Positions 8,827-57,422 of a DNA stretch of 64,000 bases are shown in pieces. Source of the stretch: a virus; IMG/VR virus record IMGVR_UViG_3300038465_000068, positions 3,053-67,052 of that record; one strand, 5' to 3'. The notes beneath the pieces were generated by a model that worked only from the letters and a program-made list of their open reading frames with translations, was not told the DNA's origin and made no database searches. The position numbers and the translations under genes are program-made. Every line of letters begins with the position of its first letter. Position 1 is the stretch's first letter.

Positions 8827-9239
8827 TGACGTCACGAAACGAAAGGTTGCGGCCCAAACTCTACTACGCTTGGAGGGCTATGAAGGCCCGGTGCCATAGC
8901 CCCAACGCGACCGGCTATCATAATTATGGCGGGCGCGGCATTTCGGTTTTCCCGGAGTGGATAAAATCGTTTGAAGCATTTGCTCGTGATGTTGGGCCGC
9001 CGCCATCGAAGGCTCACTCCCTCGACCGCTTTCCTGATACAAATGGAAACTACCAGCCGGGAAACGTGCGCTGGGCGACCAAAAAAGAGCAGTTGAGAAA
9101 CCAGCGCAAAAACATATCTGTCACCGTTGACGGCAGAAAAATGTCACTCGCCGAAGCTGTTGAACTCAAGGGGCTTAAATACAACACGGTTCTGTATCGA
9201 ATCAGGCGTGGAAAAACACCGGCCGAGGCGCTGGCATGA
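8826..9239 (+). CDS. HNH homing-endonuclease-like protein
   Basis: WRAMKARC...YGGRGI...SLDR..DTNGNYQPGNVRWAT; visibly lower GC. Confidence 0.85.
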   Translation: MTSRNERLRPKLYYAWRAMKARCHSPNATGYHNYGGRGISVFPEWIKSFEAFARDVGPPPSKAHSLDRFPDTNGNYQPGNVRWATKKEQLRNQRKNISVTVDGRKMSLAEAVELKGLKYNTVLYRIRRGKTPAEALA

Positions 9240-36055: not shown

Positions 36056-39000
36056 TTTGGGCCACTCCTTACAGGGATTTTAAGCCGCGCTCGCGCGCCA
36101 GCTTCACGGCCCGTTCCAGCGCAGCGCCGGTCAGTGGCTTCATGTTTAATTTTCGCGTGTCGATCTTGTGGATCGCGCGGCGCTTCTGCTTTGCGGGCTT
36201 GTGGGTTTTTCTGGGCATAACGCTCCTTATCGTGAAAGTGAAATGCGGCGCTTGTTGCCATTATCGCGTTCCCACGCATCCGTTCGCAACTCCTGCACCG
36301 CGTCGGTCATGGCCTTGAAATCTCCGATGGTCGTCACCCAGCCGCGCTCTGCCAGCAACTTGTCAGCGAAGGCGCGCATGTTTGCCGGGCGACTATCGGG
36401 ATCGGCAATCATCCGCTTGACATTCTGTAATTGTTCCTCGCGTCGTGTCAGCATTGCGGCTCCTTTACAGGCTCATTGTTTCTGGAAAGTTTTTGTATTC
36501 GACGCCATCTGTTGGTCGCGCTCCACTTCTTAGTCATAGCGTCCCCTAGAAGTCGAGTTGGCGACAGCGACGGGCGCTGGCGCGAAAGAAACCGGCATTG
36601 GTGTATGGCCCATCGCTTTCGGTGATCGACGCCAAATCCTCAAAACGATCAGCGGCCATACGAAGGCACTTGGCCTGTTTGTCCAGAGTGTCGGCGGCGT
36701 TGATAAGCAGCACTCGCAAATCCGGGTCGCCGTCGCGCCCATTGAAATGTTCGGCCCGCTCTCTCAGTAAATCGGCGTAGGTCTTATCCATTTCTGCGGC
36801 TCCTCAGGTTTCGTAAATTGCAATGATGTCATTAAGCAGCTTCATCCGGTACTCGACTGTCTCCATCTCAGCTTCAAGGGCCGCCTTCGCTTGTCGCACC
36901 ACCGTAATGAAGTCTGGTGCGGGCGCGCGGCGCGGCTTCTCGCGCGCATAGCATGGCGCGTTAGGGTCAAGAGCTATGCGCGGATACCGTTTCACCTACC
37001 GCTCCATTTAATCCAGTTGCTTTGTGGCGAAGCGGTACAACTCGGCGGCAACCGCTTCTCCGGTTGAAGGAATGTGAGCGGCGGCCTGTGGCCCTACGGT
37101 CGTGCCGTTCCTAATGGTGCTGGGGGCCTCGCGAGCCGTACCAGACCGCTCTGGGGTATTCTGTAAGAACCTGCCCGCATCGCGGTGGCAGGACATGCAC
37201 TGATAGGTTTCGTCATAGCCGTCACCCACCAGTGCCAGCGTGTGCTTGCCGCAGAACGGACAGTCGCGGGTATTTTCAGTATGGCGATAATTGTCCATTC
37301 AGGCGCTCGCTTTCAGTTAGTCGCTGCAATGGCAGCATCTAGTTTTTCAATGGCGGCTATCGCGCCGTCGCGGGCGGCTACCATGTCCTCGCGGTATGCG
37401 GCGGCTGGCGCAGCCGTGACCTCGCCCCAGCTTTCGGCGGCATAGGCTTTGGCTTCGTCCTTCGGCCAGAACCCGGCCTCCGCGATGTACGCGGTGTAGC
37501 CTTGGTTGTTTGGCCGATAGAACATGCCGCGCTTCCGCTTTACCCACGGGCCGGGCATGGCATCCCACTTGGCTTGCAGTTCGGCGTCTGTCCTTGGTGC
37601 CATCAGATGCTCCCCTCTTAGTCAGTTTCAGGTTGTAGAACATTCACCACTTCGGCAAGGCAATGAGACCAACAACAATCCAGATAATAAGCAGGATGCA
37701 GCCGACCTTGAAGCGGTGTATCGCCCATGCCGCTTCGCTGATATGTTCTGACCGCTTCTTCGTCATGACTTGAAATCTCCCTTTGTGCGGACCCAGCCCC
37801 ACTTGCCATCGCGGTTGACCCAGCAGGCTTGCCCCTTACGCTCTAAGACCTTGAGGATGCGGCTGGCCGCCGCGCCAGCGCCCTGCGCCTTCATCTGGTG
37901 ATCGGGCCAGATAAACCCGGCGATGTGCGAAGCCGGGTTCGGTGTCACGCGGGACAGCACAGCGAAGGCGCGACTTTCCGCCGTCGCCATGTCCAATCGG
38001 TGTCCGCGTTCCAGCTTCAAAACAGGCTCCTAAATATCTTCGCCGTGAACTGGGCAGTTTGCGGGACCGGGGCATTGGCCGGGCCAATCAGGATAACCGC
38101 ATAGGCAGGTATTGCGCCGACGCGCCTGCTTCGCTTCCCACGCCTCGCGGCGCTCATCGTCATCAGGCTCACGCCGTCCGTATTCATCGCGGTCACTCAT
38201 GCTCAGTCTCCTAAACGCCGCCGGGTTCTTCCAAGATTGCCGCTTCGTGTGCAGCCTTCTTAGAACCTTCGCCCCAGCGGCAAAGATAGTATGTTTCTCT
38301 GACGCTGAACCTATCGAGCAGGGACAAAAAATAGGTGTGCGCCCCTCCGTCGCTGGGAAACTCGCGTTCTTCCTCATGGTGAGCAACGCCGATGTATTGC
38401 CCGTTGGGCCTGTCGTAGGCGATGTCGAAATAGAATTGCATCAGGCGCTCGCTTATTTTTCTGGTTTCTGTTGGCAGGCTTCCGCGTAGCGCATCTTCCA
38501 TTCCGCTTTTGGGAATGACCGCGCGTAGAGGAACGGGACAATCTCGCCCAAGCTGAACCCGCCGCGACAACCGCGCCCGGCTAGATCGACCATTGCCGGT
38601 TGCGCGCTCCAAACGTGGGCATAGACCTCATAGGCGCGGCGCGTCACGGCGTCGGGCATGGGCGACAGTTTATCCGCGCCATGGGTCTGTACCGGGTGAA
38701 ACTCACCGCGCGGGATCAGGTCTTTGGGATCAGCGTCCATAGGGCTCCCCTATTGTTTAAGAACTTTGCGGATTGTTCCAGCACATTCGCCAGTGCAAAT
38801 TGTTCTCCGTCCATTCCAACACGTCGCGCATCCTCGCCACTTCGATACGCGCGTCGTCTCGTTCCTTCATCGCCTTGCGGCACTCAAACATCCAATCAAT
38901 CACCGGCTCATCTCCAGCGCCGTAGACACTTCATACAGCGGGACCGGCTCATAGGACATCAGAGCGTTGTCTCCAGAAGCGCGCCATTCATCCGCCTTGG

Positions 39001-44574: not shown

Positions 44575-44603
44575 GATATAGGACGGCCTGTCCTATTTGT
44601 CAT
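44575..44603 (-). promoter_or_regulatory. promoter with perfect operator 44578-44596
   Basis: ATGACA-N17-TATATC; ATAGGAC-GGCCT-GTCCTAT. Confidence 0.8.
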
Positions 44604-44642
44604 CAGGCGGGTCGGCCTCGGTGGTCAGGTTGAACTTGGCCA

Positions 44643-44855
44643 TCAGGCACCGCCTTTCAGCACGTCGTCCAGCGTCGAGGTCACATAGACCGTCTCGCTG
44701 GCGATGACGTGATAGTGCCGGTCGGGCTGGCCGTTCGCCACGGCGGCGGCGCGCAGGTCATCTGCCGCCGCCTTGGCTTGGGAAAAGTGCAAGTTTCTCG
44801 AAACATGCGGGATCGCGGTGCCGTCCGCTTGGATAACTGTGTGGGTCTTGTTCAT
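44643..44855 (-). CDS. hypothetical protein
   Basis: GAGGAGAG RBS; downstream of a promoter. Confidence 0.65.
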   Translation of the reverse strand: MNKTHTVIQADGTAIPHVSRNLHFSQAKAAADDLRAAAVANGQPDRHYHVIASETVYVTSTLDDVLKGGA

Positions 44856-44894
44856 TCGTCTCTCCTCGGTGGCGGCCCAACACGGGCCAAGGTG

Positions 44895-44923
44895 GATATA
44901 GGACAGAATGTCCTACGGTTCAA
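44895..44923 (-). promoter_or_regulatory. promoter with operator 44898-44916
   Basis: TTGAAC-N17-TATATC; ATAGGAC-AGAAT-GTCCTAC. Confidence 0.8.
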
Positions 44924-45165
44924 GCCATGCCCAGCAACTCGCGCAGGGCGTCATAGATCGGGTCTCCGGTCGTGTGGACCTTGGTGGCGGCGCATTGCCG
45001 GGCGTTTTCCTCGGCCCGGGCGAAGCTATCCTCGCCAACGCCGCACCCCGGGCAGACATGCGCGGCGTCGACGGTTTCGGCCGTGATGTCGCGCCCGTCA
45101 TGGCTCCAGATATGCCAGCACTCCGGGCAAACGTGGTGGTGGAAGCCATCGCGCAGGCTGCTCAT
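44920..45165 (-). CDS. small zinc-finger protein
   Basis: HVCPEC...HVCPGC. Confidence 0.65.
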   Translation of the reverse strand: MSSLRDGFHHHVCPECWHIWSHDGRDITAETVDAAHVCPGCGVGEDSFARAEENARQCAATKVHTTGDPIYDALRELLGMA

Positions 45166-45166
45166 A

Positions 45167-45343
45167 TCAGCACCCCGTCACGGAATCATACGTCACCTGA
45201 CGCTCGGTCTTGGCGCGCGCATAGGCGGCAACCTTTTCGGCCAGCGGCAGGTTTTTGGCGCGGGCGCGGGCGCGGGCATACCGTCTATCGGCGGCGCGCA
45301 GGATCGCGGCAGCATCAGGGTCGTTTGTCAGCCAGCCGATCAC
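45167..45343 (-). CDS. small basic protein
   Basis: GTGA-coupled start, GGAGG RBS. Confidence 0.5.
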   Translation of the reverse strand: MIGWLTNDPDAAAILRAADRRYARARARAKNLPLAEKVAAYARAKTERQVTYDSVTGC

Positions 45344-45435
45344 AGGTGGCCTCCAGCGATGATCCCCGCCACGATGAACGTGGCGGCGGCGGCGAAGTGA
45401 AGCGCCAGGATGGGGAAGGTGGCTGTTTTCGACAT
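45340..45435 (-). CDS. 31-aa hydrophobic peptide, first gene of the leftward operon (not in ORF track)
   Basis: MSKTATFPILALHFAAAATFIVAGIIAGGHL; GGAGAG RBS. Confidence 0.55.
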   Translation of the reverse strand: MSKTATFPILALHFAAAATFIVAGIIAGGHL

Positions 45436-45480
45436 TTTGTCTCTCCGGTTGAGCGGGCCAAAACGGCCCTTGACCCAACT

Positions 45481-45597
45481 GATATAGGACAGTCCGTCCT
45501 ATCCTTCAATGGCTATTTTTACGAAATGTTAGTGCCGTTTTTGGCGGAATACCGCCTTTTCTTGGCTCTTGAATAGGACGGCCTGTCCTACTATATT
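45481..45597. promoter_or_regulatory. divergent promoter pair, each with an operator (45484-45502, 45573-45591)
   Basis: Minus: TTGAAG-N17-TATATC; plus: TTGAAT-N17-TATATT; the coding strand switches here. Confidence 0.85.
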
Positions 45598-53745: not shown

Positions 53746-54032
53746 GTCTTTGGCTTCCTGATTTTGCGCGCGACCGCCAACTGCGCCGCCACCAGCTTGC
53801 CGCGCTCGGTCAGCGTGACGTGCACCTTGACCATGCCGCGCCCGGCCAGCGCGCGCAGGCTGATGTTGGGCGCTATGTCGGTGAAATCTGCCACCCGACC
53901 GCGCACCGCGCCGATCTTGGTCAGCGCATATCGCTGGGTCTCGCTAAGGCGCGGCTCGCCCCGGTGACTCATAAATCGGCCCGGATGCTTCCGGCGTGGA
54001 TCGTATAATCTTTTGGCGGCGGCTCGATCCAT
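53742..54032 (-). CDS. winged-helix-like protein
   Basis: LSETQRYAL...LRALAGRGMV...LTERGK. Confidence 0.55.
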   Translation of the reverse strand: MDRAAAKRLYDPRRKHPGRFMSHRGEPRLSETQRYALTKIGAVRGRVADFTDIAPNISLRALAGRGMVKVHVTLTERGKLVAAQLAVARKIRKPKT

Positions 54033-54331
54033 TCAACATAGGCTGAATTGTTGCGCATCGCGGCGGTGTGCTGCGGCTCGGCCTTCGCCACCGACATCAC
54101 GACAAAGCCGTCCTTGAGGCCCTGCGGGTTGTCCTCCGGCCGGGCGATATAGGTGATGGTGCGGCCGAGACTGTCGCCGGTCAGCGCGCCGGTCGCGTGG
54201 TCAAATTCCTGCAACAGCAGCAAGTCGCCGGGCTGGAAATCCCGGTCGGCCTTGCGCAGTTCGTGGACCTTGAGACCAGACCGCGCGGCGGCGAATTGAT
54301 CGGGCCAGATTTTCAGGCGGTGTGCGCGCAT
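53969..54331 (-). CDS. DUF3850/ASCH-domain protein
   Basis: HRLKIWPDQF...G.K.HELRKADRDFQPGDLLLLQEF. Confidence 0.85.
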   Translation of the reverse strand: MRAHRLKIWPDQFAAARSGLKVHELRKADRDFQPGDLLLLQEFDHATGALTGDSLGRTITYIARPEDNPQGLKDGFVVMSVAKAEPQHTAAMRNNSAYVEWIEPPPKDYTIHAGSIRADL

Positions 54332-55857: not shown

Positions 55858-56034
55858 TTAGCCCGGGCCGCCGCTGAGATAGACAAGCCCGACGGCACAG
55901 CCGATTGCGATAGCGGTCGCGCCAGCAAAGCCAAAGATGGCCGACAGCACCAAGCCAGCGCCCAGCATGTGCAGCGTGAACATAATAGCCAGCCAGATGG
56001 CCGCCCAGATCGCGACAGCTATCGCCTCGATCAT
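55858..56034 (-). CDS. small two-TM membrane protein (not in ORF track)
   Basis: MIEAIAVAIWAAIWLAIMFTLHMLGAGLVLSAIFGFAG...; ATGA coupling. Confidence 0.55.
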   Translation of the reverse strand: MIEAIAVAIWAAIWLAIMFTLHMLGAGLVLSAIFGFAGATAIAIGCAVGLVYLSGGPG

Positions 56035-56471
56035 GCCGTTTTCTCGGCAGCTTTATTTTTCTCGGCAACGCCTTCAAGCCGCGCCGCCTCGTGCCCGGCG
56101 CTGATGCGCGCCTGCTTCTCCAGTGCGAGACGGCTGGCCTCACTCTCGTCATGGAGTAGCTGCGCCTTCTCGACCAGCTTTTCCACATGCGGGCCTTGCG
56201 CGGCATGGCGTTCGTCAAGCTGACGCTCGGCCCACGCTTGCAGGCAATCGAAGTCGCAAAAGTGGTGCTGGAGGATCACGTCATGCCGGTCATGGTGCGT
56301 AATGTCGATGTTGCCCAGCGTCGGGTGGGCGAGCACGTCCACGACCTCGGTGCCAGCCTTCACCGGGATGCGGACACCCTGCGCCATCAGGTGAAAGCTA
56401 CGGCCTTCACCCTCGCTGATGTTCTTGCCGCAGTTCGGCGCGTCGCAGGTGATGACTTGTTCGCGTGCCAT
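56031..56471 (-). CDS. zinc-finger protein
   Basis: ITCDAPNCG...HFCDFDCL; true start at 56471 (upstream is RNA genes). Confidence 0.7.
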   Translation of the reverse strand: MAREQVITCDAPNCGKNISEGEGRSFHLMAQGVRIPVKAGTEVVDVLAHPTLGNIDITHHDRHDVILQHHFCDFDCLQAWAERQLDERHAAQGPHVEKLVEKAQLLHDESEASRLALEKQARISAGHEAARLEGVAEKNKAAEKTA

Positions 56472-56531
56472 TGGTGTCCCGCTCTGGAAAGTGATGCGGA
56501 CAATCTGGCCTGATTTGGCTGGCCGAGCAAG

Positions 56532-56604
56532 TGGTGGACGGGCCGAGGAGTCGAACCTCGTTTCCCCGCGCCGATGGCGTGGGGCGCGTCCCGCCGCGCC
56601 CGCC
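56532..56604 (-). ncRNA. 73-nt tRNA-like RNA with aberrant D and anticodon arms
   Basis: Acceptor GGCGGGC/GCCCGTC, T arm CGAGG-TTCGACT-CCTCG, 3' ACCA. Confidence 0.7.
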
Positions 56605-56613
56605 TTGAATTTC

Positions 56614-56696
56614 TGGTGCGGCGAACTTCGCCATTTCCACCCTGCGCGCGCTTCCGGCCGGATCATGCGCAAAGGCCCGCCTTGCGGCTGGCACCA
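56614..56696 (-). ncRNA. unidentified structured RNA (multi-way junction, ends CCA)
   Basis: TGGTGC/GCACCA closing stem with three internal hairpins. Confidence 0.5.
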
Positions 56697-56701
56697 CCTC
56701 G

Positions 56702-56790
56702 TTGGTGGGCGCTCGACCATCTGCGCCTCCTCCGGTTTCCCGGCACCTGTTTGCCGCCTTCACGCAGCGGGTCTAAATCGGCGACACCAA
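56702..56790 (-). ncRNA. unidentified structured RNA
   Basis: TTGGTG/CACCAA closing stem; CCGG-GAAA-CCGG hairpin. Confidence 0.5.
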
Positions 56791-56801
56791 ACTGAAATAG
56801 T

Positions 56802-57102
56802 TGGCGGCTTTCTGTTGCCCGGAGGCCGCCTGCACCGCGCATCAACGCCGTTAGGCGGCGATGCGGACTTCTTCGTTGTCGTTGACCTTTACGGTCCTGC
56901 TCGCCTTGGCTTGCGCCGTTTCGATCCGTATCCAGCCGTCGATCCTGTTTCGCCCCCGTGCGCCGCGCATAGGCATCGAACCTATCTCCCTGCCCAGCAT
57001 GGCGGGGCCGCCTCACCTTGAGGCTTGTTCGCGGCTTGGTGGAGGCGGCGGGCATCGCATCCCGCGTCCGGTCAAGTCGTAATCGAAAACATCAGCTTGC
57101 AG
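56802..57102 (-). ncRNA. ssrA: two-piece (circularly permuted) tmRNA
   Basis: Acceptor piece ends GGACGCGGG..CCCGCCGCCTCCACCA (57037); coding piece starts GGGGGCGAAACAGGATCGAC (56957); G3-U Ala pair; tag VNDNEEVRIAA* at 56886-56851. Confidence 0.92.
56961..57035 (-). ncRNA. tRNA-like element inside the tmRNA intervening segment
   Basis: GCCGCG/CGCGGC acceptor, D arm GCCT-CAAGGTG-AGGC, T arm ATAGG-TTCGATG-CCTAT. Confidence 0.7.
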
Positions 57103-57109
57103 TTCGTGA

Positions 57110-57138
57110 GATATAGGACCGGATGGCCTATGCGTCAA
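57110..57138 (-). promoter_or_regulatory. promoter of the RNA operon with operator 57113-57131
   Basis: TTGACG-N17-TATATC; ATAGGAC-CGGAT-GGCCTAT. Confidence 0.8.
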
Positions 57139-57422
57139 TACCGAGGCTGGCGCGTTATACGCGGGTACCTCGCTCGCCGGGCCGTTGTCATAAGCCCCCC
57201 AGCCCCTCGATGGCGGTGGACGAGCGAGGTTCATATCACCACAAATTCAAAGCCTTGGGATGACATGCACAAATCGGCATACGAAATATGCGCCGGATTA
57301 TGCGTCAGGCCGCTTTTGCCGACGGGTGCTGAATACCAGTAGCGCGACGATGATCCAGAACGTGTGCATGACATTTCGCCCACCCAGAGGCCGTATAACG
57401 CGGGCCGGGCAGTTATCGGCAC

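What the first reader, a model, noticed from the sequence alone, without database searches (positions are those of the whole stretch)
56532..56604. tRNA mimic with a zipped-up anticodon arm
Seen: canonical T arm and acceptor stem but a minimal D arm and a long CCCCACGCC-ATC-GGCGCGGGG stem with no 7-nt U-turn loop. CAU lies at the apex, and the CCCC(A)CGCCAT sequence is shared with the element inside the tmRNA. Inference: non-decoding tRNA(CAU)-like decoys rather than functional tRNAs.
Basis: partly seen in the sequence, partly recalled or inferred. Interest (0 to 1): 0.7.

Follow-up and report, generated by a model that had tools for sequence, protein, structure and literature searches.

The report
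Anticodon-less tRNA look-alike beside phage tmRNA
A peat-soil phage carries, just after its own ribosome-rescue RNA gene, one tRNA-shaped sequence that cannot read codons; it is most likely a cutting signal or mimic for tRNA-handling enzymes, but the nearest relative lacks it and its role is unproven.

Summary
At 56532-56604 (minus strand) there is a 69-73 nt cloverleaf: a 7-bp acceptor stem, a canonical T arm, a 3-bp D arm, and an 8-pair closed hairpin with an AUC triloop where the anticodon loop should be. ARAGORN calls it; it made 1 call in 60 shuffled windows. The Rfam tRNA model finds nothing.

The window is a 67-kb peat phage contig. The element lies 195 nt downstream of a phage-borne two-piece alpha tmRNA, at the end of an RNA island, directly before an operator-like site of the next gene.

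I found no homologue. The closest relative (complete, 66.8 kb) has the tmRNA, a covarying RNA motif (X) and the operator block, but unrelated DNA in place of the element. No relative has a normal tRNA there.

The element is non-decoding. The "CAU" link and the shared-motif argument are not supported, and the decoy role is untested.

It is not a DS6A-type TLD-only tmRNA: 6.8 bits against 34.7 for DS6A. Its best sub-threshold Rfam match is mascRNA.

- **Best reading (0.35):** a t-element-like processing handle cut by RNase P and tRNA 3'-end enzymes.
- **Rivals:** an inert acquired relic, an alanine/SmpB mimic, a nuclease decoy.

Earlier notes of this scan describe similar anticodon-less tRNA mimics in other phages.

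The parts
56532..56604 (-). tRNA-like element: acceptor 56604-56598 / 56543-56537, D region 56597-56585, closed hairpin 56584-56564 (AUC triloop), AAA 56563-56561, T arm 56560-56544, C56536, encoded ACCA 56535-56532. If A56605 is counted as position 1, the encoded ACCA sets a register with A1.C72, G2-C71, G3.U70 and A73.
56799..57142 (-). Phage-encoded two-piece (permuted) alpha-type tmRNA gene. It lies upstream of the element on the same strand.
   Evidence: Rfam RF01849 74.7 bits and RF04321 70 bits, both over their gathering scores. The relative L002 has it too, at 85.3 bits.
56958..57036 (-). tRNA-like fold that fills the tmRNA intervening segment: acceptor-like GCCGCG/CGCGGC and T-arm-like ATAGG-TTCGATG-CCTAT.
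   Evidence: Direct reading. The T-arm-like hairpin recurs in L002's intervening segment as GGGG-TTCGATT-CCCC. ARAGORN does not call it, and its acceptor is only 6/7 paired by my reading.
56703..56789 (-). Motif X: a covarying three-way-junction RNA between the tmRNA and the tRNA-like element, absent from Rfam.
   Evidence: 18 pairs, 9 with changes on both sides, 0 of 500 shuffles as good, slid controls at most 1.
56605..56702 (-). 98-nt spacer between X and the element. Like the element itself, it has no counterpart in the relative phage.
   Evidence: blastn of window 56800-56440 against L002 9370-9960 gives no collinear match for window 56704-56535.
56498..56534 (-). Block conserved with the relative, starting inside the element's CCA (CCACTTGCTC...). 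It contains a one-mismatch copy (AGGCCAGATTGTCC, 56498-56511) of the phage's repeated operator-like palindrome.
   Evidence: AGGAC-N5-GTCC with up to 1 mismatch gives 56 matches against 12.0 expected, 0 of 100 shuffles as many.
56031..56471 (-). Next gene downstream: a 146-aa Cys/His-rich protein of unknown function.
   Evidence: Start confirmed by alignment with two homologues. No PHROG match; only a sub-threshold Pfam DUF7576 match.

Best explanation
The element is a real, tRNA-shaped but non-decoding RNA module at the 3' end of the phage's RNA island (tmRNA, motif X, spacer, tRNA-like). Most likely it is a substrate for the host's tRNA-end enzymes. RNase P would cut at its 5' side (56604/56605). 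The 3' tRNA-maturing nucleases would trim to the encoded CCA (56532) or to the discriminator. This would separate the upstream structured RNAs from whatever transcription runs on into the next gene, and would release a roughly 70-nt stable tRNA-like by-product. In short, it works like a t-element or mascRNA-type 'punctuation' signal. Shown: the fold, its non-random nature, its position, and its non-decoding architecture. Inferred: transcription through it, cleavage by RNase P and 3' enzymes, and any benefit to the phage.
For: (1) It has the intact part that tRNA-end enzymes recognise: a 7-bp acceptor stacked on a 5-bp T stem, with a canonical UUCGACU loop, a G53-C61 pair and an encoded CCA. 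(2) The anticodon arm is closed and the D arm is minimal. (3) On the 131-nt stretch, the best Rfam matches are all tRNA-like mimics and all below their thresholds: mascRNA 21.8 bits (E 0.014), tRNA-Sec 16.2, tymovirus tRNA-like 15.6. mascRNA is the RNase P/Z-released archetype; that statement is from my own knowledge. (4) Position: it is the last structure of an RNA island. Its CCA overlaps the start of a block conserved with the relative, and that block holds a copy of the phage's operator-like palindrome. (5) The simple scan finds no intrinsic terminator between the tmRNA promoter region and the next gene (0 sites in 56200-57400). (6) The same locus already depends on tRNA-type processing. 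Permuted tmRNA precursors are cut by tRNA-processing enzymes (PMC11915505, passage read), and here the intervening segment itself folds as a tRNA-like. (7) t-elements are an established precedent for tRNA-like cis-signals for RNase P/Z at mRNA ends (PMC1920247, abstract read).
Against: No RNA data exist, so neither transcription nor cleavage is shown. The nearest relative (G001, complete, 66.8 kb) lacks the element and has unrelated DNA there, so it is dispensable for this phage type and there is no covariation support. The encoded CCA is one base out of register with the 7-bp acceptor (C-ACCA). The next gene appears to have its own operator/promoter block, which lessens the need for punctuation. 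The mascRNA match is far below its gathering score (21.8 against 42.5) and is an analogy only.
Confidence: 0.35

Rival explanations
1. Inert relic. The element is a tRNA-like piece brought in with the 170-bp replacement segment (56704-56535), by recombination or as a decayed phage tRNA gene, and has no present function.
For: It is absent from the only relative with this locus, where the same slot holds unrelated DNA. That DNA includes a 61-nt, 79%-identical fragment of a small Zn-ribbon gene with stops in frame, so the slot collects scraps. Phage alpha-type tmRNA genes often have tRNA genes just downstream: 27 of 78 viral loci have an ARAGORN tRNA within 2 kb on the same strand. A former tRNA gene here would therefore be unremarkable. 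RF00005 finds nothing.
Against: 23 of 24 predicted pairs are intact, and the T loop is canonical. Compared with a tRNA, the D arm is about 5 nt shorter and the anticodon arm 4 nt longer and fully zipped. That is a redesign, not a few decay mutations (direct reading). The sequence is identical in contigs of 4 public runs from 4 studies, but this only shows that the phage is widespread.
Confidence: 0.25
2. Alanine-type acceptor or tmRNA-TLD mimic, working like the TLD-only tmRNA of mycobacteriophage DS6A. It would be charged by AlaRS and/or bind SmpB or EF-Tu, modulating host trans-translation alongside the phage's own tmRNA.
For: The overall design matches the DS6A molecule, which I located at JN698994 28478-28556: acceptor, unpaired or minimal D region, a closed helix instead of an anticodon arm, and a T arm. 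Counted back from the encoded ACCA, the end reads A73, C72, C71, U70, with G opposite U70 (G3.U70), as in the phage's own tmRNA. It lies next to a tmRNA gene. A TLD-only RNA was reported to inhibit tmRNA, perhaps by titrating SmpB (PMC4131195, passage read).
Against: The Rfam tmRNA model gives 34.7 bits (E 5.7e-13) for the DS6A control in a 131-nt search. The element scores only 6.8 bits, and tmRNA is not even the best clan member in the equal-size search. The G3.U70 register needs an A.C mismatch at 1:72 and an 8-bp acceptor; in the 7-bp register the G.U sits at 2:71. The TLD D-loop signature (GG..UCGAC in the window's tmRNA and in DS6A) is not present: the element has GGGACGCG. No SmpB gene is found in G000 or G001.
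Confidence: 0.15
3. One reading: a decoy that soaks up a host tRNA-targeting nuclease or toxin (VapC/PrrC-type, or a CCA-end modifying enzyme).
For: It is a tRNA shape that cannot decode, carried by a phage. The same phage encodes a RelA/SpoT-like domain on its large virion protein; this comes from first-stage note e1-6181164 and was not tested here.
Against: Anticodon nucleases need the anticodon loop, which is missing here (inference). There is a single copy, no strong own promoter was found, and it is not conserved in the relative. One full-text search for phage tRNA-like decoys (listing seen only) gave no paper on such an element.
Confidence: 0.12
4. Chance fold in GC-rich non-coding DNA, or an att-type copy of the 3' end of a host tRNA or tmRNA gene.
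For: The looser structural test is met by chance in 33 of 200 shuffles. The region is 62% G+C.
Against: ARAGORN made 1 call in 60 shuffles, and the element sits within 200 nt of the only other tRNA-type gene of the window. Against att: the pattern TTCGANTC-N6-CCCGTCCACCA gave 24 matches in 185,579 species genomes. Only one of them is a tRNA (a Streptomyces tRNA-Trp), and none is in an alphaproteobacterial tRNA or tmRNA. No tyrosine integrase is found in the 67-kb record, which is 70% complete. The 5' half also pairs perfectly, which an att copy does not need.
Confidence: 0.08

Closest known systems
t-elements of plant mitochondrial mRNAs and tRNA punctuation (Forner et al. 2007, PMC1920247; abstract read); mascRNA from MALAT1 (Rfam RF01684)
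   Same: A tRNA-like fold that keeps the acceptor/T-arm half, has a reduced D arm and anticodon arm, and sits at the boundary of transcripts. It is expected to be cut by RNase P and RNase Z. mascRNA is the best sub-threshold Rfam match (21.8 bits).
   Different: This one is bacterial and phage-borne, has an encoded CCA, and no RNA ends have been mapped. The score is far below the mascRNA threshold (42.5), so this is an analogy of mechanism and not membership.
TLD-only (CDS-less) tmRNA of mycobacteriophage DS6A (PMC4131195, PMC11915505; passages read; located at JN698994 28478-28556)
   Same: A phage-encoded, ~70-80 nt tRNA-like with a closed helix in place of the anticodon arm and a weak D region. 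In one register it has an Ala-type 3' end.
   Different: DS6A scores 34.7 bits on the Rfam tmRNA model, has a clean G1-C72/G2-C71/G3.U70 stem and has the GGUCGAC D-loop motif. The element scores 6.8 bits, lacks the motif, and has its G.U in an ambiguous register. DS6A has no full tmRNA beside it; this phage does.
tRNA gene inside the intervening sequence of a permuted tmRNA gene, reported as unique (tRNA-Ala; PMC11915505, passage read)
   Same: tRNA-type structures are coupled to the processing of a permuted tmRNA precursor. In this window the intervening segment holds a tRNA-like, and a second one follows the gene.
   Different: [quoted passage not shown] Here both structures are non-canonical, and the one under study lies outside the tmRNA gene.
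Ordinary phage tRNA genes downstream of phage alpha-type tmRNA genes
   Same: Same gene neighbourhood: 27 of 78 viral loci have an ARAGORN tRNA within 2 kb downstream on the same strand.
   Different: Most of those are standard cloverleaf tRNAs with 7-nt anticodon loops, e.g. tRNA-Arg(UCU) and tRNA-Gln(UUG), but the tally also counts an atypical 88-92 nt 'tRNA-Ile(UAU)' with a minimal D arm and a long variable arm. This element fails the tRNA model.

Membership tests
Canonical tRNA (Rfam RF00005) | Covariance-model score at or above the gathering score (29 bits) | tested here: not met
   0 matches at E<=10 in the whole record G000; real tRNAs in G002 and G004 score 63.6 bits in the same call
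Canonical tRNA (Rfam RF00005) | 5-bp anticodon stem with a 7-nt loop and U33 | tested here: not met
   The arm is 8 pairs with an AUC triloop, pair probabilities 0.98-1.0. Opening two pairs gives CCAUCGG, with C at position 33
Canonical tRNA (Rfam RF00005) | 7-bp acceptor stem, 5-bp T stem, T loop UUCRANN with G53-C61 | tested here: met
   GGCGGGC/GCCCGUC and CGAGG-UUCGACU-CCUCG
Canonical tRNA (Rfam RF00005) | Standard D arm (U8, A14, 3-4 bp stem, 7-11 nt loop with GG) | tested here: not met
   No U8 and a 3-bp stem with a 5-6 nt loop; only the GG is present
TLD-only / CDS-less tmRNA (DS6A type) | The Rfam tmRNA model (RF00023) matches both ends with a clear score | tested here: not met
   Element 6.8 bits, E 2.8, and not the best clan member in a 131-nt search. 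The DS6A positive control scores 34.7 bits, E 5.7e-13, in a 131-nt search
TLD-only / CDS-less tmRNA (DS6A type) | Alanine identity: G3.U70, A73, CCA | tested here: inconclusive
   Present only if the helix is counted from the encoded ACCA (A1.C72 mismatch, 8 positions). In the 7-bp ARAGORN/MFE register the G.U is at 2:71 and position 73 is C
TLD-only / CDS-less tmRNA (DS6A type) | D-loop analogue with GG..UCGAC | tested here: not met
   Window tmRNA has CAGGAUCGAC and DS6A has GGUGGUCGAC; the element has GGGACGCG
TLD-only / CDS-less tmRNA (DS6A type) | Alanylation, SmpB binding | not testable with these tools
   No RNA-protein tool is available. No SmpB gene in G000 or G001
t-element / tRNA-punctuation signal | Acceptor/T-arm half of a tRNA kept, decoding half lost | tested here: met
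t-element / tRNA-punctuation signal | Sits at a boundary between transcript units | tested here: met
   It is the last structure of the RNA island. Its CCA abuts the conserved operator-like block, 60 nt before the next start codon
t-element / tRNA-punctuation signal | RNA ends map to the element (RNase P/Z cleavage) | not testable with these tools
   No RNA reads of this phage were available
att-type copy of a host tRNA/tmRNA 3' end | Identity with the 3' part of a host tRNA or tmRNA gene, and an integrase nearby | tested here: not met
   24 pattern matches in the species genomes; 1 is a tRNA (Streptomyces tRNA-Trp) and none is alphaproteobacterial. No PF00589 match in G000. Limits: exact pattern only, and the record is 70% complete

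The most novel reading that the evidence does not exclude
The phage makes two tRNA-type products beside its tmRNA, and this one is a chargeable or CCA-bearing acceptor mimic with G3.U70/A73 in the register set by its encoded CCA. It would engage AlaRS, EF-Tu or SmpB and so retune host ribosome rescue in favour of the phage's own two-piece tmRNA. That would be a second, structurally distinct solution to what the DS6A TLD-only RNA does.
Probability: 0.12. Interest if true: 0.7.

Novelty: new variant of a known kind. Interest (0 to 1): 0.4.

Why it matters
Phage-borne tRNA look-alikes that cannot decode are barely described in print. The named precedents are the DS6A TLD-only RNA and one tRNA inside a tmRNA intervening sequence. 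If this element is cut by RNase P, then together with the tRNA-like that fills the tmRNA intervening segment it would show a phage using tRNA-type punctuation to mature a whole island of non-coding RNAs (two-piece tmRNA, motif X, tRNA-like). If instead it is charged or binds SmpB, it would link a mimic to a phage's own tmRNA. Either result is directly testable with a northern blot, end mapping and an RNase P assay. The caveat is that this is a single copy with no conserved homologue, so it may be an inert passenger.

Tried and rejected
**Homologue searches that found nothing for the element**
- blastn (distant mode) of 56480-57200 against 50,697 phage records: no match.
- Exact 29-mer of the T arm and 3' end in IMG/VR: 0 stretches.
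- Relatives by head-morphogenesis protein: 2 loci, one phage type.
- Relatives by portal alignment: 6 loci, none with a tRNA-like.
- Relatives by the downstream protein: 2 proteins in 5.8 billion, one of them the window's own.
- Relatives by an alignment of 3 such proteins in IMG/VR: 2 loci, the same phage again.
- My structural scan of all held loci found ordinary tRNAs, recurrent copies of an atypical 88-nt 'tRNA-Ile(UAU)'-like with a minimal D arm and long variable arm (it still has an anticodon loop), and a few uncalled hits that look like chance; none has a closed anticodon arm.

**Public sequencing runs**
- No RNA holder listed.
- Contigs of 4 DNA runs were laid. They are identical to the window wherever they cover it, so they give no variants for covariation.

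**Readings rejected**
- Coding: the long ORF 56031-56720 crosses the element, but homologues start at 56471.
- 9/4 'tRNA-Sec-like' fold: -22 to -29.6 kcal/mol against -40.4 for the cloverleaf.
- Paralogy with the intervening-segment element: only generic tRNA-like similarity, and no blastn match inside the window beyond 14 nt.
- L002's 285-nt replacement segment: no Rfam match at E<=10 in it, and fold z -0.38.
- Motif X model R1: finds only its 3 founders in 100 sources, 0.96 Mb.

**Papers and limits**
- Supplements of papers were closed. The tables of PMC11915505 may list further phage or CDS-less tmRNAs that bear on novelty.
- Mao et al. 2009 was not read; I know it only through PMC4131195.
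- That no paper describes closed-arm tRNA-like decoys in phages rests on one search (listing only).

Full report
**What the window is.** The window is bases 3053-67052 of a 67,052-base IMG/VR virus record (linear, CheckV completeness 70%). On the minus strand the order is as follows.
- Large terminase, 62663-60849.
- Portal, 60819-59335.
- Head-morphogenesis protein, 59338-58196 (PHROG 3517, E 1.4e-55).
- Two small ORFs.
- A two-piece alpha-type tmRNA gene, 57142-56799 (RF01849 74.7 bits, RF04321 70 bits).
- The element under study, 56604-56532.
- A 146-aa Cys/His-rich protein starting at 56471.

Contigs identical to this stretch occur in 4 public peat or permafrost DNA runs from 4 studies. 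The sequence is therefore not an assembly accident.

**The observation.** The element reads GGCGGGC / GCGGCGGGACGCG / CCCCACGCC-AUC-GGCGCGGGG / AAA / CGAGG-UUCGACU-CCUCG / GCCCGUC / C / ACCA.
- ARAGORN calls it tRNA-Asp(atc).
- ViennaRNA gives the same cloverleaf as the minimum-free-energy fold: -40.4 kcal/mol, z -2.26, 6 of 200 shuffles as good. The fold is kept in a 276-nt context.
- The arm at the anticodon position is closed. Its 8 pairs have probability 0.98-1.0, with one internal A.C mismatch and a 3-nt loop.
- ARAGORN made 1 call in 60 dinucleotide shuffles of the window.
- A looser test of my own (T loop, 5/5 T stem, 7/7 acceptor) is met once in the window and in 33 of 200 shuffles.

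Because the element lies within 200 nt of the only other tRNA-type gene, inside about 1 kb of non-coding DNA, chance is unlikely. The motif said to be shared with the element inside the tmRNA occurs 6 times against 3.45 expected.

**It is not a tRNA.** The Rfam tRNA model finds nothing at E<=10 in the whole record, while it scores 63.6 bits on real tRNAs of two other viral records in the same call. Searching only 131 nt, the best matches are all tRNA mimics and all below threshold: mascRNA 21.8 bits (E 0.014), tRNA-Sec 16.2, tymovirus tRNA-like 15.6. The tRNA-Sec-type 9/4 fold is much less stable than the cloverleaf: -22 to -29.6 against -40.4 kcal/mol.

**Relatives.** One related phage type was found: L002/L003 and duplicates, record G001, 66,819 bases with terminal repeats, 100% complete. 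Identity is 76% for the portal and 69% for the head-morphogenesis protein. It has:
- the tmRNA (85.3 bits);
- a conserved structured RNA just downstream, motif X;
- a conserved block that begins exactly at the element's CCA (CCACTTGCTC...) and contains the operator-like core AGGAC-N5-GTCC.

Between X and that block the window has 170 nt, namely the 98-nt spacer plus all of the element except its CCA, which already lies in the conserved block. G001 has 285 unrelated nt. Those 285 nt give no tRNA call, no Rfam match and an unremarkable fold (z -0.38). Part of them is a 61-nt, 79%-identical fragment of a small Zn-ribbon gene that the window carries at 37008-37298. More distant relatives hold other cargo after the head-morphogenesis gene, for example a Proteo-phage-1 RNA in L010 (67.9 bits).

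The odd arm is therefore not shown to be conserved, and no relative has a normal tRNA at this place. No further homologue was found in the phage records, IMG/VR, one metagenome scan or the protein-guided searches.

**Att-site reading.** A scan of 185,579 species genomes for the T loop plus the exact 3' end gave 24 matches, about what chance predicts by my own estimate. Only one lies in a tRNA, a Streptomyces tRNA-Trp, and none lies in an alphaproteobacterial tRNA or tmRNA. No tyrosine integrase is present in the record. The perfectly complementary 5' strand is also not what an att copy needs.

**tmRNA-TLD reading.** Two papers describe a "TLD-only" tmRNA in mycobacteriophage DS6A and report that a similar RNA inhibits tmRNA, perhaps by titrating SmpB (PMC4131195 and PMC11915505, passages read). 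I located the DS6A molecule at JN698994 28478-28556.
- In favour: its plan is the same as here, with an acceptor, a weak D region, a closed helix and a T arm. Counted back from the encoded ACCA, the element has A73 and G3.U70, like the phage's own tmRNA.
- Against: as a positive control, DS6A scores 34.7 bits on the Rfam tmRNA model in a 131-nt search. The element scores 6.8 bits and is beaten by tRNA-Sec within the clan.
- Against: the G3.U70 register needs an A.C mismatch at 1:72.
- Against: the D-loop signature GG..UCGAC is missing.
- Neither phage encodes SmpB.

I therefore do not file it as a TLD-only tmRNA. A mimic function remains possible (0.15).

**Processing reading.** The locus already relies on tRNA-type processing. 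Permuted tmRNA transcripts are cleaved by tRNA-processing enzymes (PMC11915505). Here the intervening segment folds as a tRNA-like whose T-arm-like hairpin recurs with a different stem in G001: ATAGG/CCTAT against GGGG/CCCC, with the same TTCGAT loop.

The element is the last structure of the island. The simple scan finds no terminator-like site in 56200-57400. The tail after the tmRNA's 3' hairpin is U-poor in the window (AACUAUUUCAGUUU), whereas G001 has U7 (direct reading). Immediately after the CCA comes a copy of the phage's operator-like palindrome; the core with up to 1 mismatch gives 56 matches against 12.0 expected, 0 of 100 shuffles as many.

What the element keeps is the acceptor/T-arm stack that RNase P and the 3' tRNA nucleases recognise (this specificity is from my own knowledge). 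What it loses is the decoding half. That is the definition of a t-element or a mascRNA-like signal (PMC1920247, abstract read). I take this as the most likely mechanism (0.35), while stressing that transcription and cleavage are inferred.

**Relic reading.** The slot is variable and collects fragments, and tRNA genes are common after phage alpha-type tmRNA genes (27 of 78 loci). An acquired piece with no function is therefore a serious rival (0.25). Against it, 23 of 24 pairs are intact, and the architecture differs from a tRNA by coordinated length changes rather than by scattered mutations.

It was not testable here. An element without an anticodon loop is a poor substrate mimic for anticodon nucleases (0.12).

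**Earlier notes of this scan (unchecked leads).** They describe several anticodon-less alanine-type tRNA mimics and tRNA-like punctuation elements in other phage genomes, with the same two closest-known systems. I reached DS6A from the papers before seeing these notes. The t-element paper came from the notes, and I read its abstract.

**Verdict.** This is a real, single-copy, non-decoding tRNA-like gene at the end of a phage RNA island. It is a new variant of a known kind, its function is unproven, and interest is moderate.

Noticed in passing
window 56703-56789 (-); L002 9383-9472; L004 234-344: Motif X: a ~90-110 nt three-way-junction RNA with a conserved single strand UCGCCGAUUUAGACC, a GNRA hairpin, and a 5-bp hairpin with loop AG(A/G)UGGUCG(A/G). 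It has 18 pairs, 9 with changes on both sides, 0 of 500 shuffles as good. No Rfam match at E<=10. In L004 (a provirus record) it lies about 90 nt upstream of the small terminase gene; in the window and L002 it follows the tmRNA. Model R1 finds only these three in 100 sources.
   Followed up: partly
window 56958-57036 (-); L002 ~9090-9215: The tmRNA intervening segment folds as a tRNA-like in the window. In L002 it is 130 nt, closed by a 9-bp helix, and keeps a T-arm-like hairpin with a different stem but the same TTCGAT loop. PMC11915505 calls a tRNA inside such a segment unique.
   Followed up: partly
L048, L049, L061, L064, L067, L072, L073, L094, L103, L111, L118, L120, L131 (low-GC viral contigs): Downstream of alpha-type tmRNA and tRNA-Arg(UCU) lies a recurrent 88-92 nt 'tRNA-Ile(UAU)' with a minimal D arm, a long variable arm and an encoded ACCA. 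Its identity was not examined.
   Followed up: no
L002 9482-9542 vs window 37104-37163: The DNA that replaces the tRNA-like in the relative contains a 61-nt, 79%-identical piece of the small Zn-ribbon ORF 37008-37298 (weak Lar-like Pfam match), with stop codons in frame. It looks like a gene fragment.
   Followed up: partly
window, 56 sites incl. 56498-56511, 57115-57129, 44580-45589: The operator-like core AGGAC-N5-GTCC (up to 1 mismatch) occurs 56 times against 12.0 expected, 0 of 100 shuffles as many. This confirms the first-stage note on a genome-wide palindrome. One copy abuts the tRNA-like element.
   Followed up: partly
L010 7625-7713: A more distant relative (portal 53% identical) has a Proteo-phage-1 RNA (RF03044, 67.9 bits) in the slot after the head-morphogenesis gene, where the window has its tmRNA island. 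The slot seems to be a site for non-coding RNA cargo.
   Followed up: no
window 53969-54331 (-): A DUF3850 / ASCH-like protein (Pfam 76.3 bits; PHROG 986, 'RNA-binding protein') lies 2.2 kb downstream of the RNA island.
   Followed up: no
window 56300-57300: Contigs identical to this stretch are present in peat and permafrost metagenome runs of 4 studies (X2, X4, X5, X6), so the phage is widespread in such habitats.
   Followed up: yes
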